Shown here in pieces: positions 31,686-37,067 of a DNA stretch of 64,000 bases. Position 1 is the first letter of the stretch; every line of letters begins with the position of its first letter. Source of the DNA: Candidatus Saccharimonadota bacterium (GTDB taxonomy: Bacteria; Patescibacteriota; Saccharimonadia; Saccharimonadales; Saccharimonadaceae); NCBI GenBank assembly GCA_028286285.1, contig JAQBRV010000002.1, positions 116,814 through 180,813 of the forward strand, in the 5' to 3' direction. Both the position numbers and the translations under genes were made by a program. The notes under the pieces were generated by a model that was given only the letters and a program-made list of their open reading frames with translations, did no database searches and was not told the origin of the DNA.

Positions 31686-32627
31686 TTAGGCATCAATTAA
31701 AGCGCGGACTTCGTCCGTGCTTTTTGCGTGCATCAGTTTGTCTCTTAGTTCAGCTGCCCCATCAAACTCCCGCACATAAATCTTAAAGAACCGTTTCAAC
31801 GGATCGAATTTACGGGGGGCGAGTTTTTCGTATTCATCATGCAGATCGAGCTGGAGATTGAGCAATTCAAGCAGATCTTCTTTTGTGTGAGTATTAGGTT
31901 TAGTCTCGAAAGCAAATGGGTTATGAAAGATGCCGCGACCAACCATGACACCATCGACGCCGTGTTTAGCAATCAATTCTTCACCATGCTGACGGTCGCG
32001 AATATCGCCGTTGATCGTTAGGAGTGTTCCAGGCGCAATCTCGTCGCGCAGTTGCTTGATGTCGTCGATCAGCTCAAAGTGGGCGTCGACTTTGCTCATC
32101 TCTTTTTTGGTACGCAGATGGATCGTCAGATTGGCGATGTCCTGGCGAAAAAGATGACCAAGCCACTCTTGCCATTCACTCGGAGTGCTATAGCCCAGCC
32201 GTGTTTTGACACTGACGGGTAGACCACTAGCCTTAGCGGCCGCGATCATGGCAGACGCTAGTTCTGGTGTGCGGATCATGCCTGCGCCACCACCACTTTT
32301 GACAGCCGAAGCATCGGGACAACCCATATTGATATCAATCCCGTCGTAGCCCAGCTCCTTACAGTGTAATGCTAGTTTAGTCATAGCCTCGGGCTCTGCG
32401 CCCCAGAGTTGGGCGACAATCGGGTGCTCGTCATCGGTCTTGACGAGTCGCGTGCCAATGGCTTTGTCGCCCGCTGCGGCCCAGCCAGTGGCATTGGTAA
32501 ATTCCGTGAAGAAAAGATCAGGCGCGGCGGCATGTTTGACGACATGCCGAAAGACAACATCAGTTACTGCCTCCATCGGAGCCAGAATAAAGAAAGGTTT
32601 TGGTAGGTCGTGCCACAATGAATTCAT
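31686..32627 (-). CDS. dus: tRNA-dihydrouridine synthase
   Basis: Start taken at MNSLWHDLPKPFFILAPMEAVTD (ATG 32627). IDINMGCP and a TIM-barrel Dus signature. Confidence 0.85.
   Translation of the reverse strand: MNSLWHDLPKPFFILAPMEAVTDVVFRHVVKHAAAPDLFFTEFTNATGWAAAGDKAIGTRLVKTDDEHPIVAQLWGAEPEAMTKLALHCKELGYDGIDINMGCPDASAVKSGGGAGMIRTPELASAMIAAAKASGLPVSVKTRLGYSTPSEWQEWLGHLFRQDIANLTIHLRTKKEMSKVDAHFELIDDIKQLRDEIAPGTLLTINGDIRDRQHGEELIAKHGVDGVMVGRGIFHNPFAFETKPNTHTKEDLLELLNLQLDLHDEYEKLAPRKFDPLKRFFKIYVREFDGAAELRDKLMHAKSTDEVRALIDA
31701..31725 (+). terminator. Intrinsic terminator of the atp operon (lies inside the 3' end of the convergent dus gene)
   Basis: AGCGCGGAC-TTCG-TCCGTGCT hairpin followed by TTTTT. 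Confidence 0.6.
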
Positions 32628-32797
32628 AGATAGGTTTACGGTAGTCTTTATTATATCAGCAACGATATGAAATAAAAAACGCCTCACATCTGACACAAAT
32701 GATTTATGTCGAATGTGAGACGGACAGGAATAGTGCGTGAGGCGGAAGCCTCGTTCCCTCTTTGCTTCGCAGCAATGAGTGTCCGTTCTCTGGAGGG

Positions 32798-32965
32798 TCA
32801 GCTGAGGATTCCCCAGCCACTGGACTTCCCCTTGGGGAGTCGCGCTTCGGCTGCCTTCTCGGCTGCCTTCAGCGTTTCCAGATCCCTGCCCTTCACCTTG
32901 GCTTTCTCCGCAGTTTCTCGATTACTCCGAGCTATACGAAGAGCCTCTTCCTGGTTGCTTGGCAA
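32798..32965 (-). CDS. 55-aa Lys/Ala/Glu-rich small protein (below the ORF-track length cutoff)
   Basis: TTG start at 32965, preceded at 5 nt by a perfect AGGAGGTGA. Translation MPSNQEEALRIARSNRETAEKAKVKGRDLETLKAAEKAAEARLPKGKSSGWGILS, then TGA. Found by reading the minus strand. Confidence 0.45.
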   Translation of the reverse strand: MPSNQEEALRIARSNRETAEKAKVKGRDLETLKAAEKAAEARLPKGKSSGWGILS

Positions 32966-33459
32966 CTAGTTCACCTCCTAGGGTGATATTGGGTTCGAAC
33001 CGAACAAATGGGTTGGACTACGAGCAGGTGCATCACCTGCAGCGGCGCTAAGCAACGCACCTGCCCGTAGGTTGAACGACGAACGGCAGAGAGCTGCTAC
33101 CTCGGCTGCTCAAACCAAGAGCTCTCCACCGTTCGCCGACTCGTGGACTGCAGGCAGGTGAAGGTCAGACACTGCCTTCCCCTTGCGATGTCATCACGAC
33201 ACCTGCCTGCAGATTGAACGACGAGCACCGAGGTGGGTTTCATGGGCCCACGCGGTCGACAACGCACTGCCCAGACTCTCGGTTGTCTGGGTGGCGTTAT
33301 AGCCGACGGCTTTCCTCGGTACTCGTCGAATCTATGGGAGACCGCGAGACAGACTATTGGAGTCTATCTCGCGGTCTCATTGAAACAAGTACGCCGCTTG
33401 AGGGAATCCTTGTTAGCGTGGGCACTGATCTCTGTCACAGCGCCTTTTACTTGTTTCAG
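32966..33459 (-). ncRNA. Large structured RNA or leader of unknown class (series of long helices with a duplicated helix pair)
   Basis: No credible ORF and locally GC-rich. Helices at 33381-33458 (11 bp), 33338-33378 (12 bp plus 5 bp), 33211-33233/33314-33333, 33148-33160/33200-33212 (13 bp), 33078-33094/33121-33137 (17 bp) and 33018-33030/33058-33070 (13 bp). Mismatches become G-U pairs only on the minus strand. Confidence 0.55.
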
Positions 33460-33532
33460 TGCGGCTGACAGGATTCGAACCTGCAACCTCCATCTTGTCG
33501 AGATGACGCTCTACCAGTTGAGCTACGGCCGC
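33460..33532 (-). tRNA. tRNA-Val(GAC)-like gene with atypical features
   Basis: GCGGCCGTAGCTCAACTGGTAGAGCGTCATCTCGACAAGATGGAGGTTGCAGGTTCGAATCCTGTCAGCCGCA. The D and T arms are canonical. The anticodon loop is TCGACAA (C at position 33), there is a C6-A67 mismatch, and no CCA is encoded, unlike the other three tRNAs here. Confidence 0.6.
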
Positions 33533-33797
33533 ACGACAACACCGTACCACCCAGCTTGAAAGCTGCTGCGTGAGCAGCCTCTCTCTACCGAGTGGCATGA
33601 TGAGCCGGATCGCCAAGCAGGGTGGGTCGATGTCGACCAACTTACTGCCTGACGAACTATTTTGCACTATTCCTGTCTATTAAATTACGACTTGCGAATA
33701 GGCGGAGAGTGAGCCATGACGACTGTGTCCCGAATCACTCATCGCCTACTCAAGCAAGTGTGATCATTATTTTATCACTTTAACAGAGTGGAGTCAA

Positions 33798-36700
33798 CTA
33801 TCTATCTAATAAAAAGTCTTCAAAAGCTAACATACCTTTGAAGCTTGGATCAAACTGACTGATGTCGGGCAGATCAAGCTCGATGATGTGTTGCCAGACT
33901 TTTTGGATCAGATGAGCAAGCCGTTCACACTCATCGGCATCAAACTCAAAATCAAGTGAAACAATTTCGCCACTGCGAGTAGGCTCGACGAATTGGAGTG
34001 ACGCCGAAACGACAGAATAATTACTATAATCACGTGAATGTTCGATCAAGAATTTATAGAACATCAGCTGTTGTTTGTACTTGTGCAATTTGATCTTCTC
34101 AAAGTCGGTTTTACCCTGCCATGAACGCGAGGCTTTACCGGTTTTGTAGTCAGTCACATGAATCGTGCGAGTGACTTCGTCGATGTCGAGCAGGTCAAGC
34201 GCGCCTGTCAGTCTGGCCTCACCCAGTATGACTTGCTGACCACTAAAACCAAGCTCCACTTTTTGGTCGGGAGAAAAGGTGTCATGACGTGCGGTGAAAA
34301 ATGCTCGTAAAGCATCAATACCACGCTGCAGGAAGCTATCGTAATCCTCAACCGGTAGACGGTGCTCCTGAAGTGTGTGTTCGAAATCACTCAGAATATC
34401 TTCCTGCGGTTTTTGTTCGCGAGTTGCCTTCAGGTGATTGTGCGCCCGCTGCAAGACAGCATGAATTGCCGAACCGTAGGCGGCAGCTGGTGACATGGCA
34501 CTCGGAAAATGAAGTAAGTTGCTAAGCAAGAAATGATGCGGACCGCCACGGGACACATCGAGGAAATTATTGAGATGTGTGGCACTGAGCTTGTAGCGGG
34601 TCAGTTGGGGCGTTAAGATATCTTGCATGGAGCCCGAGATCGGCGCGACCAGCGGTGCATACCACTCAAGTTTGGTCACTTCGAGATGGTCATCCAGTGA
34701 CAACGAGGCCTCGAGGACTTGCTCTTCCACGGTACTGGCCAGAAGGAACGAGGCTTTGCGGGTTTCTTTACCACTATCATCACGCGATGCATAGCTGATG
34801 ATGAGGTCTTTTTTGGCACGGGTCATGGCCACGAAAAACAGTCGAAGTCGCTCGTCGAGTGACGAACCGCTCGGTGCCAATGGCAGATTCTCAGGATAAC
34901 TTATCATACGGCTGCGAGAACGTACTTTCTCTCCCCAGCTTGTGTCGATTGCGCCGACGATGTAGACGGTGTCAAATTCGAGGCCTTTTGATTTGTGGGC
35001 AGTCATCAAATTGACGGCTTCGTTCATAGTGTCGCGGTGCTGAGAGGTATTCATAATCGGTGTTTCGGTTGTGCGGTGCAAATCGATGAACTCGATAAAG
35101 GTTAGTAGTGAGGGTGTCTCAGCACTATGGTATTCACGCAGTTTAGCGCGGATAGTCCGCAGGCTTTGCAGGTATGACAGGTAGGCGCGCGGATCATTGG
35201 CCAGCCGCTCCTCGCTAAAGTAGTAGTCGTAGAGGGGTGACCGGAATGTTTCATTTTCGTTGCAGCCGATCAGGAGGTCAAGCATATATTCCAGCGGTGT
35301 CTGCGGCATTTTCTGCGCCAGCATTACCAACCAACTATGGATAGTAGTCAATTCGGGCATGACCGACATGATATCCAGCCAGAGTCGGTGTTCGGTGTGG
35401 GCTTGGAGACTCAGTTTCCAGATGTTCTCGGGCGTTATATTCCAGGCGGGATGAGATAGGAGTTCTGGTAGCAGGGCGTCAGCATCGGCCAGTCGTTTCT
35501 CGTGTAGAGCGATCACGATAGTCGCCAGGCATTCTAGACTAGCCAGGACATCGCTGTCGAGGATATTCTCACGTTTCTCGTAACTGACTGATACCTCAGC
35601 CTTAGCAAAATACGGCAACAGTTCGCCGATTTCGTAGTGACGCCGTGCTAGCACCGCGATCGAACTCGGCGCTTCACCACTTTCGATACGGTGTTTGATA
35701 CTATCGACCAGCCACTGGCGTTCGTCGGTACGCGAAGCGGCCTGGACAATGCGCGTTTCGGGTTTAACTACCTCATGATGAGCGGTCAGACTCTTATCGA
35801 GCTCCTCAATATACCGCTCCAGACGCTCACTTCCCTGAGTAATGACCTCCCGAGCGGCGTTAAGGATCGGCGCGGCTGAGCGGTAGTTGTCAGTCAGGGT
35901 AATCAATGTGACGTCGTGGTAGGCCTGGCGAAAATTTAGGATATTACTGACATCGGCACCTTGGAAACTATAAATGGCTTGATCGTCGTCACCAACCACC
36001 ATGATGTTCGGTCGTCCATTATTGACCTCATTGTCAGTCAGGTTATGGAGGATACGAGCCTGGGCTAAGTTTGTGTCCTGGAATTCGTCGACCATGATGT
36101 ACTGATATTTTTCCTGGATATTAAACTTTAGATCAGGCTGAGTCTCCATGGTGTGGACGACTTGCAAAATCATGTCGTCAAAGTCATAGAGTTCAGCCTC
36201 TTGCATGTGCGCCAAGTAACTATCGTAAATGGCCGCAATCGCCCGTAGTTTGACATGACGCTTGCGATCTTTGAACACAAATGCACCGCTGTCATCTTTT
36301 TCGAGCCAGGCATTCTTCCAGGCGGTAACTGGTTTAGTGGAGTGAGCGGTCTGCGCTTCATTGAGCGAGTGAGCCAGCTGGATGGCGATGACATGTGATA
36401 GCGGTGTAATCTCTGCTGGTAGTTTAGCCTCGGTTAGAGTAGCAACTTCCTGGGCAATTGGAATCAGCTGGTCGAGCGTCTTGGAGCTGATGCGCTGGTC
36501 GAACACAGTCGACAGCTTCTTTTCTATTTGGTCACAAACAGCTTCGTTGGCGTCGAGAATAGCCAGCAGCTCACTACTGGTAAGGCCGCTTCGTTTTAAC
36601 TCGGAGATCACCATAAAAGCGTCTTTTAGATAGGTGTACTCACCGTTCATTTTACTGGCGAGTAGATTAGTATAATCGAGTTCATCGAAAATAGCCCGCA

Positions 36701-37067
36701 AAATCTCGTAACTGCTGAGCTCTTCAGCCGGTGCAAAAGTAGCGCCGTTATAAAAGTATTCACTATTTTGGTTGATAATTTCGGTACCAAAACTATGAAA
36801 CGTATGTATTGCCACTTTGTATGCATCTTGCCCAATGATACTAATCAAGCGATCGCGCATGGCGTCTGCCCCACTGTCGGTAAAGGTCAAACAGAGGATA
36901 TTTGCTGCTAGGGTATCGGTCTTTGCCAAGATATTAGCGGTGCGCATACTGAGCAGCTCGGTTTTGCCGGTGCCAGGTCCAGCCACCACCATAATTGGCC
37001 CTTCGATAGTTTCGACGGCTTGTTTCTGGGCAGTGTTGAGCTTGACAAAACGACTATTAAAATCCAT
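33798..37067 (-). CDS. UvrD/PcrA-type helicase fused to a C-terminal PD-(D/E)xK (RecB/AddB-like) nuclease
   Basis: 1089 aa. AGPGTGKT Walker A, VDEFQDTN, TAHKSKGLEF. The C-terminus has HVTDYKTGK plus a QLMFYKFL-type nuclease motif. Confidence 0.85.
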   Translation of the reverse strand: MDFNSRFVKLNTAQKQAVETIEGPIMVVAGPGTGKTELLSMRTANILAKTDTLAANILCLTFTDSGADAMRDRLISIIGQDAYKVAIHTFHSFGTEIINQNSEYFYNGATFAPAEELSSYEILRAIFDELDYTNLLASKMNGEYTYLKDAFMVISELKRSGLTSSELLAILDANEAVCDQIEKKLSTVFDQRISSKTLDQLIPIAQEVATLTEAKLPAEITPLSHVIAIQLAHSLNEAQTAHSTKPVTAWKNAWLEKDDSGAFVFKDRKRHVKLRAIAAIYDSYLAHMQEAELYDFDDMILQVVHTMETQPDLKFNIQEKYQYIMVDEFQDTNLAQARILHNLTDNEVNNGRPNIMVVGDDDQAIYSFQGADVSNILNFRQAYHDVTLITLTDNYRSAAPILNAAREVITQGSERLERYIEELDKSLTAHHEVVKPETRIVQAASRTDERQWLVDSIKHRIESGEAPSSIAVLARRHYEIGELLPYFAKAEVSVSYEKRENILDSDVLASLECLATIVIALHEKRLADADALLPELLSHPAWNITPENIWKLSLQAHTEHRLWLDIMSVMPELTTIHSWLVMLAQKMPQTPLEYMLDLLIGCNENETFRSPLYDYYFSEERLANDPRAYLSYLQSLRTIRAKLREYHSAETPSLLTFIEFIDLHRTTETPIMNTSQHRDTMNEAVNLMTAHKSKGLEFDTVYIVGAIDTSWGEKVRSRSRMISYPENLPLAPSGSSLDERLRLFFVAMTRAKKDLIISYASRDDSGKETRKASFLLASTVEEQVLEASLSLDDHLEVTKLEWYAPLVAPISGSMQDILTPQLTRYKLSATHLNNFLDVSRGGPHHFLLSNLLHFPSAMSPAAAYGSAIHAVLQRAHNHLKATREQKPQEDILSDFEHTLQEHRLPVEDYDSFLQRGIDALRAFFTARHDTFSPDQKVELGFSGQQVILGEARLTGALDLLDIDEVTRTIHVTDYKTGKASRSWQGKTDFEKIKLHKYKQQLMFYKFLIEHSRDYSNYSVVSASLQFVEPTRSGEIVSLDFEFDADECERLAHLIQKVWQHIIELDLPDISQFDPSFKGMLAFEDFLLDR

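What the first reader, a model, noticed from the sequence alone, without database searches (positions are those of the whole stretch)
32966..33459. RNA of about 490 nt made of long helices, with a duplicated helix pair supported by compensatory changes; unknown class
The stretch between the tRNA-Val-like gene and a small ORF has no credible coding potential but folds into consecutive long helices. A two-helix module is repeated. Module 1 is helix X1 (33211-33233 with 33314-33333) followed by Y1 (CUGCAGGCAGGUG/CACCUGCCUGCAG; 33200-33212 with 33148-33160). Module 2 is X2 (33078-33094 with 33121-33137) followed by Y2 (CUACGGGCAGGUG/CACCUGCUCGUAG; 33058-33070 with 33018-33030). The two junctions share CGUCGUUCAA(U/C)CU. 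Between Y1 and Y2, two positions changed on both strands so that pairing is kept (G-C to A-U, and A-U to G-C), and a third became G-U. Mismatches in X1 and X2 are C-A on the plus strand but G-U on the minus strand, so the RNA is a minus-strand transcript. The last hairpin (UCACC..GGUGA, 32971-32986) pairs with part of the AGGAGGUGA Shine-Dalgarno of the downstream 55-aa ORF. It could be a stand-alone ncRNA or a very long regulatory leader. I could not fit it to tmRNA, RNase P, SRP, 6S or T-box consensus.
Basis: seen in the sequence. Interest (0 to 1): 0.75.

Follow-up and report, generated by a model that had tools for sequence, protein, structure and literature searches.

The report
Structured leader of framed small-protein transcript
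The 490-base stretch is a real, strand-specific folded RNA, but it is one module of a roughly 1.1-kb transcript in Saccharibacteria that a conserved long-range helix closes around a tRNA look-alike, this RNA and a 55-residue protein gene, and no database or paper searched describes that arrangement.

Summary
All four helices (X1, Y1, X2, Y2) and the repeated junction lie at the stated coordinates. The minus strand folds far better than shuffles (z = -11.2). A metagenomic homolog (L205, 65% identical) keeps all 132 consensus pairs, 24 of them through compensatory changes. No Rfam family matches.

The interpretation needs widening. The stretch is not a separate gene. It lies inside a transcription unit that runs from about 33797 to 32674 on the minus strand. 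The unit has a near-consensus promoter, a leader hairpin and a 14-nt 5' arm. Next come a tRNA-Val-like element with C33, the 490-nt helix array and AGGAGGUGA. Then follow a genuinely coding 55-aa ORF, a 3' UTR, the complementary 3' arm and a conserved 3' hairpin with a U-tract.

The arms covary across 28 Saccharibacteria loci (96.9% paired, 11 of 14 pairs compensatory). The unit always sits between a UvrD-like helicase gene and dus. Its interior is mosaic: the same RNA occurs with different ORFs, and the same ORF with different RNAs.

Function is inferred only: a processed, clamped, structured mRNA chassis. It is a new variant of structured leader or dual-function RNA. Interest is moderate to high.

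The parts
33769..33797 (-). Sigma-70-type promoter, TTGACT, 17 nt, TAAAAT (TG before the -10), just after the stop of the UvrD-like helicase gene
   Evidence: 10 of 12 matches. The same TTGACN-17 nt-TAnnnT arrangement scores at least 9/12 in 34 of 37 related units.
33678..33762 (-). Leader hairpin (about 85 nt, -37 kcal/mol) with a 5' UUGAG flank and a 2-nt 5' bulge. The 5' end is an estimate taken from the -10 box.
   Evidence: the same hairpin shape appears in nearly all units; only 8 pairs were recovered by alignment folding, 7 of them with compensatory changes, because the alignment is poor.
33664..33677 (-). 5' arm GACAGGAAUAGUGC of the long-range closing helix
   Evidence: I4: perfect 14-nt inverted repeat, 927 nt apart. 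It pairs in the MFE of the whole unit. Covariation across 28 units: 96.9% paired, 11 of 14 pairs compensatory, 0 of 500 shuffles.
33533..33663 (-). Two hairpins between the 5' arm and the tRNA-like element (GUUCGUC...GGCGAUC and CAUCAUGCCAC...GUGGUACGGUG)
   Evidence: This segment is homologous in L205, L216 and L217 (60-72% identity).
33460..33532 (-). tRNA-Val(GAC)-like element. The cloverleaf is intact, but the anticodon loop is UCGACAA, with C33 in place of U33.
   Evidence: Rfam tRNA 62.3 bits. ARAGORN. Elements at the same position in relatives have non-decoding loops: L205 'gttg', L216 'ctgt', L217 'cta'.
33382..33457 (-). H1: a 9-bp closing stem with two inner hairpins. It starts 2 nt after the tRNA-like 3' end. 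The loop UGACAGAGAU is identical in L205.
33337..33378 (-). H2: a near-perfect 16-18-bp hairpin
   Evidence: I2. 6 compensatory pairs against L205 (helix 4).
33211..33333 (-). X1: a long helix (14-bp base, extended by AGAUU/AAUCU) with a branched top
   Evidence: I5; helix 6
33148..33212 (-). Y1: a 13-bp perfect helix, CUGCAGGCAGGUG/CACCUGCCUGCAG, with GGGGAAG in its top
   Evidence: I7. Identical in L205 (helix 11). Module covariation.
33077..33138 (-). X2: a 19-bp helix with three G-U pairs (a paralog of X1)
   Evidence: I3. Also (helix 13).
33018..33070 (-). Y2: a 16-bp helix (a paralog of Y1)
   Evidence: I6. Also (helix 15).
32966..33017 (-). Pyrimidine-rich tail with a small UUCG...CGAA hairpin, the UCACC/GGUGA hairpin (32971-32986) and the Shine-Dalgarno AGGAGGUGA (32971-32979)
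   Evidence: AGGAGGT occurs in 19 of 36 units. SD sequestration is not above the control.
32798..32965 (-). Real 55-aa ORF (TTG start), predicted to form a helical hairpin
   Evidence: Against L081: differences by codon position 12/7/31, with 24 synonymous and 11 non-synonymous codon changes. Homologs P0001, P0012 and P0016 lie at the same locus. AF2 pLDDT 73, helices 4-21 and 27-42. No Pfam, NCBIfam, PHROG or PADLOC hit.
32737..32797 (-). 3' UTR with the conserved ACGGACA motif (32780-32786) and two small hairpins
   Evidence: This segment is homologous in units that carry unrelated ORFs (65-72% identity).
32723..32736 (-). 3' arm GCACUAUUCCUGUC of the closing helix
32674..32722 (-). Conserved two-part 3' hairpin (CGUCUCACA...UGUGAGGCG) abutting the 3' arm, then UUUUUU; it acts as an intrinsic terminator here
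   Evidence: 11 of 17 pairs compensatory; U-G/U-A at one pair. Model R1 scores 79.5 bits on the minus strand against 29.1 on the plus strand, and hits 35 of 83 related loci.

Best explanation
**Shown**
- The 490 nt are the central, modular leader of one minus-strand transcription unit (about 33797 to 32674). The unit belongs to a Saccharibacteria-specific family that always lies between a UvrD-like helicase-nuclease gene and dus.
- The order of parts is: strong promoter, leader hairpin, 5' arm, two hairpins, tRNA-like element, helix array (H1, H2, X1-Y1, X2-Y2), AGGAGGUGA, 55-aa ORF, 3' UTR, 3' arm, 3' hairpin with U-tract.
- The two arms form a covarying 14-bp helix that closes the whole interior next to the leader and 3' hairpins.
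- The interior is a mosaic of exchangeable modules.

**Inferred mechanism**
- The RNA acts in cis as a chassis for the small-protein mRNA.
- RNase P and RNase Z would cut at the tRNA look-alike, whose anticodon loop is free to decay. That would leave an mRNA whose 5' end is the H1 stem, which starts 2 nt after the tRNA 3' end.
- The closing helix plus the 3' hairpin would clamp and protect the 3' end.
- The X-Y helix array would sit between the processing site and the ribosome-binding site. There it could set mRNA stability and translation, possibly through a factor that binds the recurring X-Y and GGGGAAG elements.
- No step of this mechanism has been tested.
For: **One transcription unit**
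- There is a single promoter-like site upstream and a single hairpin plus U-tract downstream. Nothing of either kind lies between the tRNA-like gene, the RNA and the ORF.
- The closing helix pairs in the MFE fold. It covaries in 28 units, including G-U intermediates and a matched 1-bp deletion in L222.
- The 3' hairpin covaries and is strand-specific.

**Leader structure**
- The helices are conserved with 24 compensatory changes against L205.
- X and Y module types recur in L205, L216, L217, L081, L222 and L218: 98.8% paired and 17 of 27 pairs compensatory. The strands for this count were picked by hand.

**Coding ORF**
- The ORF is under purifying selection. An SD of the AGGAGGU type is present in 19 of 36 units.

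**Mosaic interior**
- Window and L205 share the leader (72%) but not the ORF. Window and L081 share the ORF (75% nt, 78% aa) but not the leader. The 3' UTR is shared by all.

**tRNA look-alike**
- The element scores 62 bits against the tRNA model but has C33. Its positional orthologs have 4-nt 'anticodons' or rod-like anticodon arms.
- H1 begins 2 nt after the discriminator base in both the window and L205.

**Single locus**
- The locus is fixed wherever contigs are long enough to see it.
Against: - No expression, processing or translation data exist. The transcript ends are inferred from consensus motifs only.
- Minimal units (L046b, L075, L210, L031) have no leader array and no tRNA-like element, so these modules are dispensable for expressing the ORF.
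- The RNA module is kept while the ORF next to it is replaced (window against L205). That could mean the RNA has a function of its own.
- SD masking is no stronger than composition predicts.
- The candidate alternative pairing ACGGAC/GUCCGU is barely above shuffled controls and does not covary where the junction changes.
- About a third of the 3' hairpins lack a U-tract, so termination is not their only role.
- L058 and L060 units have only 7-codon ORFs.
Confidence: 0.5

Rival explanations
1. Stand-alone or dual-function ncRNA. The helix array, alone or with the tRNA-like element, is released from the precursor by RNase P, RNase Z and a second cut. It then acts in trans, for example as a protein sponge or scaffold or as a base-pairing regulator. 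The ORF is only a co-transcribed passenger, as with delta-haemolysin in RNAIII.
For: - The RNA is conserved independently of the ORF: window and L205 share the leader with 24 compensatory changes but carry unrelated ORFs.
- Conserved unpaired stretches exist. The H1 loop UGACAGAGAU is identical in the two. GGGGAAG occurs in 11 of 36 units against 1.9 in shuffles.
- The fold is extremely stable.
- The known large RNAs GOLLD and ROOL are also often next to tRNAs (PMC5737381).
Against: - The closest ORF homologs lack most of the array, and minimal units lack all of it.
- There is no terminator or recognisable processing site between Y2 and the SD.
- The array is always followed within about 50 nt by a strong SD and an ORF.
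- Most helices are plain rods, and no conserved multi-helix junction or pseudoknot was detected.
Confidence: 0.27
2. Cis-regulatory leader or attenuator for dus. The unit, with its tRNA mimic, senses tRNA status or Dus itself and controls read-through of the 3' hairpin into the dihydrouridine synthase gene.
For: - The 3' hairpin lies directly upstream of dus in 32 of 35 loci with an R1 hit.
- In L006 and L017 the hairpin has no U-tract and the dus ATG follows within about 25 nt.
- The tRNA-like elements keep a canonical D-arm, which is the substrate region of Dus.
- An ACGGAC motif complementary to the arm/hairpin junction recurs at -37 to -60.
Against: - In the window and in most units a U-tract and an extended -10 box separate the unit from dus.
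- The ACGGAC pairing is not above the control and does not covary.
- L057, L058 and L060 units lie about 4.3-5.7 kb from dus.
- Many units have no tRNA-like element.
Confidence: 0.1
3. Type I toxin-antitoxin-like locus. A small-protein mRNA is kept translationally inert by 5'-3' fold-back pairing, as in hok, and is activated by processing.
For: - A long-range 5'-3' helix encloses a small ORF with a strong SD.
- The ORFs are highly variable.
Against: - The proteins are hydrophilic helical hairpins or Cys-rich zinc-ribbon-like peptides, not membrane peptides.
- There is no PADLOC hit.
- No convincing antisense promoter was found; the only plus-strand match is 9 of 12 and lies in the dus promoter region.
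- The locus is a single, vertically conserved one.
Confidence: 0.06
4. A DNA-level feature: remnants of a mobile element or MITE with terminal inverted repeats and internal palindromes, with no function as RNA.
For: - A perfect 14-bp inverted repeat flanks a variable interior.
- The interior shows internal duplications.
- Assemblies often break inside the interior.
Against: - There is one copy in 64 kb and the chromosomal site is always the same.
- Compensatory changes with G-U intermediates fit only one strand.
- Model R1 scores 79.5 bits on one strand and 29.1 on the other.
- No transposase or integrase gene is nearby.
- No real copies were found in viral contigs.
Confidence: 0.03

Closest known systems
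Staphylococcus aureus RNAIII and other dual-function RNAs (SR1/SR1P, SgrS/SgrT)
   Same: It is a long (about 0.5-1 kb), many-hairpin RNA whose domains are closed by long-distance helices and which also encodes a small protein. (What is stated about RNAIII rests on my own knowledge.)
   Different: There is no sequence or covariance-model relation. No trans targets are known. The RNA carries a tRNA-like element, the ORF is swapped between relatives, and the locus is fixed between the helicase gene and dus.
hok-type mRNAs with 5'-3' fold-back (tac/fbi) pairing
   Same: A long-range helix joins the 5' and 3' ends of a small-ORF mRNA, and the mRNA body is highly structured.
   Different: The encoded proteins are hydrophilic rather than membrane toxins. 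No antisense RNA is evident. The helix encloses a tRNA-like element and up to 700 nt of leader.
tRNA-mRNA co-transcripts and tRNA-like processing signals (bacterial tRNA-tufB operon, mitochondrial 'tRNA punctuation', MALAT1-mascRNA)
   Same: A tRNA-shaped element is embedded in a longer transcript, at a position where RNase P and RNase Z cleavage would define the ends of the neighbouring RNA.
   Different: Here the element's anticodon loop is degenerate or replaced by a rod in relatives. Cleavage has not been tested.
ROOL and GOLLD large ornate RNAs
   Same: They are large bacterial structured RNAs of unknown function that often lie next to tRNA genes (PMC5737381).
   Different: There is no match to their Rfam models. 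This RNA is a string of rod-like helices followed by a translated ORF. It is chromosomal at one syntenic site and is not linked to a prophage.
RNase III processing stems that flank rRNAs in rRNA operons
   Same: Conserved complementary sequences hundreds of nucleotides apart pair to enclose a structured RNA.
   Different: The stem is only 14 bp, the enclosed RNA includes an mRNA, and cleavage is untested.

Membership tests
tRNA (Rfam RF00005), for the adjacent 'tRNA-Val-like' gene | Cloverleaf that scores above the family gathering threshold (29 bits) | tested here: met
   62.3 bits at 33460-33532, minus strand. ARAGORN calls Val(gac).
tRNA (Rfam RF00005), for the adjacent 'tRNA-Val-like' gene | Canonical 7-nt anticodon loop with U33, and a decoding identity kept in orthologs | tested here: not met
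   The loop is UCGACAA, so C33 (alignment). Positional orthologs are read as 'gttg', 'ctgt' and 'cta'. Others have 98-129-nt forms with rod-like anticodon arms.
ROOL / GOLLD / OLE / HEARO / raiA (large bacterial ncRNAs in Rfam) | Match to the family covariance model | tested here: not met
   No hit at gathering threshold or at E up to 10 in 32500-33800. None in 13 related loci or in L046.
ROOL / GOLLD | Frequent location next to tRNA genes or in prophages | tested here: inconclusive
   It lies next to a tRNA-like gene, but at a fixed chromosomal site with no phage genes. No true copies were found in viral contigs.
T-box leader | Match to RF00230, a T-box sequence with antiterminator, and a downstream aminoacyl-tRNA synthetase or amino-acid gene | tested here: not met
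   No Rfam hit. The downstream gene is a 55-aa ORF of unknown family.
Type I toxin mRNA (hok-like) | 5'-3' long-range pairing of the mRNA | tested here: met
   14-bp helix, covarying
Type I toxin mRNA (hok-like) | Small hydrophobic or membrane toxin, plus a cis-encoded antisense RNA | tested here: not met
   The proteins are hydrophilic (sequences; helical hairpin). Only a weak 9-of-12 plus-strand promoter match was found. Antisense transcription itself cannot be tested here.
Retron ncRNA | Flanking inverted repeats (a1/a2) plus an adjacent reverse transcriptase gene | tested here: not met
   Inverted repeats are present, but the neighbours are a UvrD-like helicase gene and dus. No RT gene is present.
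MITE / transposon with terminal inverted repeats | Many dispersed copies, target-site duplication, and strand-neutral evolution | tested here: not met
   There is a single copy in the window and the site is the same in all genomes. The G-U pattern is strand-specific.
Dual-function (coding plus structured) bacterial RNA | One transcript holds extensive conserved structure and a translated small ORF | tested here: met
   Structure. Coding signature of the ORF. Co-transcription is inferred from the lack of internal signals.
Dual-function (coding plus structured) bacterial RNA | Demonstrated regulatory activity of the RNA part | not testable with these tools
   This needs genetics or biochemistry.

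The most novel reading that the evidence does not exclude
Saccharibacteria carry, at one fixed chromosomal site, a previously undescribed RNA 'chassis'. A sequence-conserved three-helix frame (leader hairpin, 14-bp closing helix, 3' hairpin) holds modules that are exchanged by recombination. The modules are a tRNA mimic that no longer needs to decode, arrays of X-Y helices, and unrelated small-protein ORFs. The RNA modules would have a function of their own, such as a processing handle, a protein-binding scaffold or a trans-acting RNA. The locus would then work as a cassette system for fast-diversifying small effectors of an epibiotic bacterium.
Probability: 0.3. Interest if true: 0.8.

Novelty: new variant of a known kind. 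Interest (0 to 1): 0.6.

Why it matters
- Saccharibacteria and other CPR bacteria have tiny genomes, and almost nothing is known about their RNA biology.
- A conserved 0.4-1.1-kb transcription unit takes up about 0.1% of such a genome. It has a near-consensus promoter, a covarying end-to-end clamp, tRNA look-alikes with decayed anticodon loops, and ORFs that are swapped between otherwise homologous RNAs. A unit like this is likely to be highly expressed and under unusual selection.
- It offers a defined, testable case of tRNA mimicry used inside an mRNA, and of modular evolution of a structured RNA.
- It gives a family of unannotated small proteins to study.
- It may provide a natural expression scaffold for the new genetic systems in these organisms.
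- It also shows that 'tRNA' calls at this locus in MAG annotations should be treated with care.

Tried and rejected
1. **Rfam.** I searched the whole window at gathering threshold and 32500-33800 at E up to 10. I also searched 13 related loci and the two-unit stretch of L046. Only tRNA matched.
2. **blastn.** The unit was compared with 80 syntenic loci. Only the 3' arm and hairpin and a few tRNAs matched, so the 490 nt are not widely conserved in sequence.
3. **Metagenome scan with the 55-aa protein profile.** It found no relatives.
4. **Viral contigs.** The module pattern gave 0 hits. Only one weak hit resulted (27.9 bits), so the matches are chance.
5. **SD sequestration as a regulatory hairpin.** It is not above the composition-matched control.
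6. **ACGGAC/GUCCGU alternative (antiterminator-like) pairing.** The mean longest match is 7.2 against 6.25 in shuffles, and nothing compensates where the junction differs.
7. **Alignment folding of the leader hairpin.** The alignment is too poor, and only 8 pairs were recovered.
8. **Small proteins against Pfam, NCBIfam, PHROGs and PADLOC.** Nothing was significant.
9. **Literature.** No paper in the library holds both 'Saccharibacteria' and 'tRNA-like'. The human-microbiome structured-RNA survey does not mention Saccharibacteria.
10. **Multi-copy chassis idea.** Homologous ORFs are always at the helicase-dus locus.
11. **Coding potential of the 490 nt.** It was rejected.
12. **Fold search of the AF2 model.** I did not run it, because a 2-helix hairpin at pLDDT 73 would give non-specific matches.
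Full report
**1. Checking the observation**

- X1 is 33219-33233 with 33314-33328.
- Y1 is 33148-33160 with 33200-33212 (13 of 13).
- X2 is 33077-33095 with 33120-33138.
- Y2 is 33018-33031 with 33057-33070.

The 24-nt junction plus Y 5' strand, CGTCGTTCAAYCTRCRGGCAGGTG, occurs exactly twice in the 64-kb window. None is expected by chance.

The minus strand folds to -252.5 kcal/mol (z = -11.2). The plus strand folds to -227.7 kcal/mol (z = -7.9). The wobble pairs in X1 and X2 are G-U only on the minus strand.

Rfam gives nothing but the neighbouring tRNA, either at gathering threshold or at E up to 10. The observation, the strand call and 'unknown class' therefore all stand.

**2. Surroundings in the window**

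The window is from a Saccharibacteria (TM7) genome. On the minus strand the order of features is as follows.
- A UvrD-like helicase-nuclease gene at 33798-37067.
- A promoter-like site, TTGACT, 17 nt, TAAAAT, at 33797-33769.
- A leader hairpin of about 85 nt.
- The sequence GACAGGAAUAGUGC at 33677-33664.
- Two hairpins.
- A tRNA-Val(GAC)-like gene at 33532-33460.
- The 490-nt array.
- AGGAGGUGA, followed by a TTG-started 55-codon ORF at 32965-32798.
- A 61-nt 3' UTR.
- GCACUAUUCCUGUC at 32736-32723.
- A two-part hairpin at 32722-32680, followed by UUUUUU.
- An extended -10 box and then dus, whose conserved start is the ATG at 32627.

The two 14-mers are perfectly complementary and lie 927 nt apart (I4). 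They pair in the MFE fold of the whole 1-kb RNA. No promoter-like or terminator-like signal lies between the tRNA-like gene, the array and the ORF.

**3. The outer frame is conserved and covaries**

Synteny (helicase, about 1 kb of intergenic DNA, dus) holds across 80 loci fetched through Dus. By blastn only the 3' arm and hairpin region is conserved. Reading the loci nevertheless shows the same architecture everywhere.

- *Arms.* The arm sequences change in step. Examples are GACAGGAAUGAUGC/GCAUCAUUCCUGUC, GACAGGCACAGUGA/UCACUGUGCCUGUC and GACAGAGAUAGUGA/UCACUAUCUCUGUC. L222 has a matched 1-bp deletion in both arms.
- *Arm statistics.* On 28 mini-frames, 96.9% of cells pair and 11 of 14 pairs show changes on both sides. 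No shuffle out of 500 reaches this, and slid controls pair at 31-47%.
- *Caveat on the arms.* For some units the 5' arm was located by its complementarity. The first 13 units were found arm by arm from sequence similarity alone.
- *3' hairpin.* It has 11 of 17 compensatory pairs and a U-G/U-A position.
- *Model R1.* A covariance model of the 3' arm plus hairpin (R1) scores 79.5 bits on the window's minus strand and 29.1 bits on the plus strand. It finds one copy in the window. It also finds copies in 35 of 83 related loci, all on the dus strand and all in Saccharibacteria, none in the Firmicutes loci.
- *Promoters.* 34 of 37 units have TTGACN-17-TAnnnT at 9/12 or better, and nearly all have a long leader hairpin.

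**4. The 490 nt have real homologs and their helices are kept**

A metagenome scan with the frame's 19-mer returned 14 loci.

L205 has the same interior as the window: a tRNA-like element, H1, H2, X1, Y1, X2, Y2 and the tail. Over 480 aligned columns the two leaders are 65% identical. They differ by 14 indels, mostly not multiples of three, and the substitutions spread evenly over the three phases (55/66/46). The stretch is therefore non-coding.

The consensus fold has 132 pairs. All of them are standard pairs in both sequences, and 24 changed on both sides. Slid controls give 1-3, and 0 of 500 shuffles reach the observed values.

Single X-Y modules of the same type sit just upstream of the SD in L216, L217, L081, L222 and L218. 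On ten module instances, 98.8% of cells pair and 17 of 27 pairs are compensatory. The strands for this count were extracted by hand, so it is illustrative.

The window and L205 thus carry a tandem duplication of a module that is single in their relatives, plus H1 and H2.

**5. The ORF is a gene, and the interior is a mosaic**

Compared with L081, the 55-codon ORF differs at codon positions 1/2/3 by 12/7/31. There are 24 synonymous and 11 non-synonymous codon changes.

Homologs P0001, P0012, P0016 and a wider 'GNQ...' family are always encoded at the helicase-dus locus. AF2 predicts a two-helix hairpin with pLDDT 73. No Pfam, NCBIfam, PHROG or PADLOC family matches any of the small proteins.

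Segment-by-segment identities show a mosaic.
- Window and L205 share the leader (72%) but have unrelated ORFs. L205 encodes a Cys-rich CxxCxGxG peptide.
- Window and L081 share the ORF (75% nt, 78% aa) but not the leader. L081 has no tRNA-like element and only one module.
- The SD region and the 3' UTR are homologous in all.

At least four unrelated ORF families occupy this slot.

**6. The tRNA-like element**

The window's element scores 62 bits as tRNA, but its anticodon loop is UCGACAA, with C33. The elements at the same position in L205, L216 and L217 are 72-77% identical to it. ARAGORN reads them with 4-nt 'anticodons' or as CUA.

L001, L002, L010 and L026 carry 98-129-nt versions. These keep the acceptor, D and T arms, but the anticodon arm is a long rod (Rfam tRNA 43-51 bits). 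Selection therefore acts on the tRNA shape and not on decoding.

In the window and in L205, H1 starts 2 nt after the discriminator base.

**7. How it most likely works (inference)**

The simplest reading that uses all the parts is a cis-acting mRNA chassis.
- RNase P and RNase Z recognise the tRNA look-alike.
- Their cuts leave an mRNA whose 5' end is a stem (H1).
- The 5' fragment stays annealed to the 3' arm next to the conserved 3' hairpin, which clamps the 3' end.
- The X-Y array lies between the processing site and the ribosome-binding site. There it could tune stability or translation, or bind a factor.

GGGGAAG is enriched, often in the top loops of X helices (11 of 36 units against 1.9 in shuffles).

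None of these steps has been tested. Two specific regulatory ideas failed their controls.
- SD masking: 0.70 against 0.69.
- ACGGAC/GUCCGU antitermination-like pairing.

Some facts argue against a purely cis role. The RNA persists while the ORF next to it is replaced. Minimal units lack the array altogether. L058 and L060 units have only 7-codon ORFs.

I therefore give the stand-alone or dual-function reading about a quarter of the probability. A dus attenuator, a type I toxin locus and a DNA-level element are less likely, for the reasons listed under the rivals.

**8. Comparison with what is known**

- *In the way it would work.* It is nearest to dual-function structured RNAs such as RNAIII, to fold-back small-ORF mRNAs such as hok, and to tRNA-punctuated transcripts.
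- *In size, unknown function and tRNA adjacency.* It recalls ROOL and GOLLD (PMC5737381). It matches neither model and is built of rods followed by a translated ORF.
- *In the literature.* No paper in the library links Saccharibacteria with tRNA-like elements.

**9. Verdict**

I rate it a new variant of a known kind (a structured leader or dual-function RNA with a tRNA mimic and an end-to-end clamp), with interest 0.6.

The most novel reading still open is a modular RNA chassis with exchangeable RNA and ORF cassettes, whose RNA modules have functions of their own. I give it a probability of about 0.3.

Noticed in passing
L001 5103-5231; L002 5145-5250; L010 178-286; L026 4930-5027: tRNA-shaped elements of 98-129 nt (Rfam tRNA 43-51 bits). 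The anticodon arm is replaced by a long rod-like hairpin, while the acceptor, D and T arms are canonical. ARAGORN also reports odd anticodons (aaa, atc, att, and 2- or 4-nt forms) at this locus in other genomes (L020, L027, L029, L033, L034, L043, L045).
   Followed up: partly
window 33173-33179 and 32828-32834 (minus strand); apical loops in L002, L009, L012, L081, L206, L213, L216, L217: The 7-mer GGGGAAG is enriched in unit interiors (11 of 36 units against 1.9 in shuffles). It is often the top loop of an X helix (CCGGUGGGGAAGCCGG). In the window it also occurs inside the ORF, within a 17-nt repeat (D3).
   Followed up: partly
L222, about 50-62 and 775-787: Both arms of the closing helix have lost one base (GACAGGATAGTGC / GCACTATCCTGTC). 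This is a compensatory indel.
   Followed up: partly
L006 5928-6000; L017 5929-6000: The conserved 3' hairpin has no U-tract, and the dus start codon follows within about 25 nt. In these genomes dus is probably co-transcribed with the unit. About a third of the units lack the U-tract.
   Followed up: partly
L046 4745-5080 and 5214-5518; L075 1241-1557 and 1667-1969: Two complete framed units lie in tandem, each with its own promoter, arms and 3' hairpin.
   Followed up: no
L057 9-338; L058 1360-1691; L060 1593-1922: In oral-type Saccharibacteria a short framed unit (about 275 nt between the arm ends) lies 4.3-5.7 kb from dus. It holds only 7-codon ORFs after an AGGAGG. This may be a non-coding or leader-peptide version of the frame.
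   Followed up: no
window 32627-32696: The longest mechanical ORF for dus starts at GTG 32696 and overlaps the 3' hairpin of the unit. The conserved N-terminus (MNSLWHDLPKPF) starts at ATG 32627, downstream of an extended -10 box (TGATATAAT).
   Followed up: partly
window 33428-33437 (H1 loop) and the same position in L205: The 10-nt loop UGACAGAGAU is identical in the window and L205. It repeats the first 9 nt of the variant 5' arm GACAGAGAUAGUGA used in L037, L042, L078 and L080. It could compete for the 3' arm's CUGUC.
   Followed up: no
L218-L221 (contig starts): Several short-read metagenome contigs that carry the 55-aa homolog begin inside the structured leader. Assemblies seem to break at its repeats or hairpins, which may hide such leaders in MAGs.
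   Followed up: no
L001 5813-6004; L081 5370-5558; L218 701-922; L222 891-1091: An extra ORF of 62-73 aa lies between the framed unit and dus in some genomes. The window has none.
   Followed up: no
units in L006, L011, L017, L043, L206, L216 (ORF ends): Many of the otherwise unrelated small ORFs end in ...KGK or GK followed by TAG. GGCAAGT occurs in 9 of 36 units against 1.2 in shuffles.
   Followed up: no
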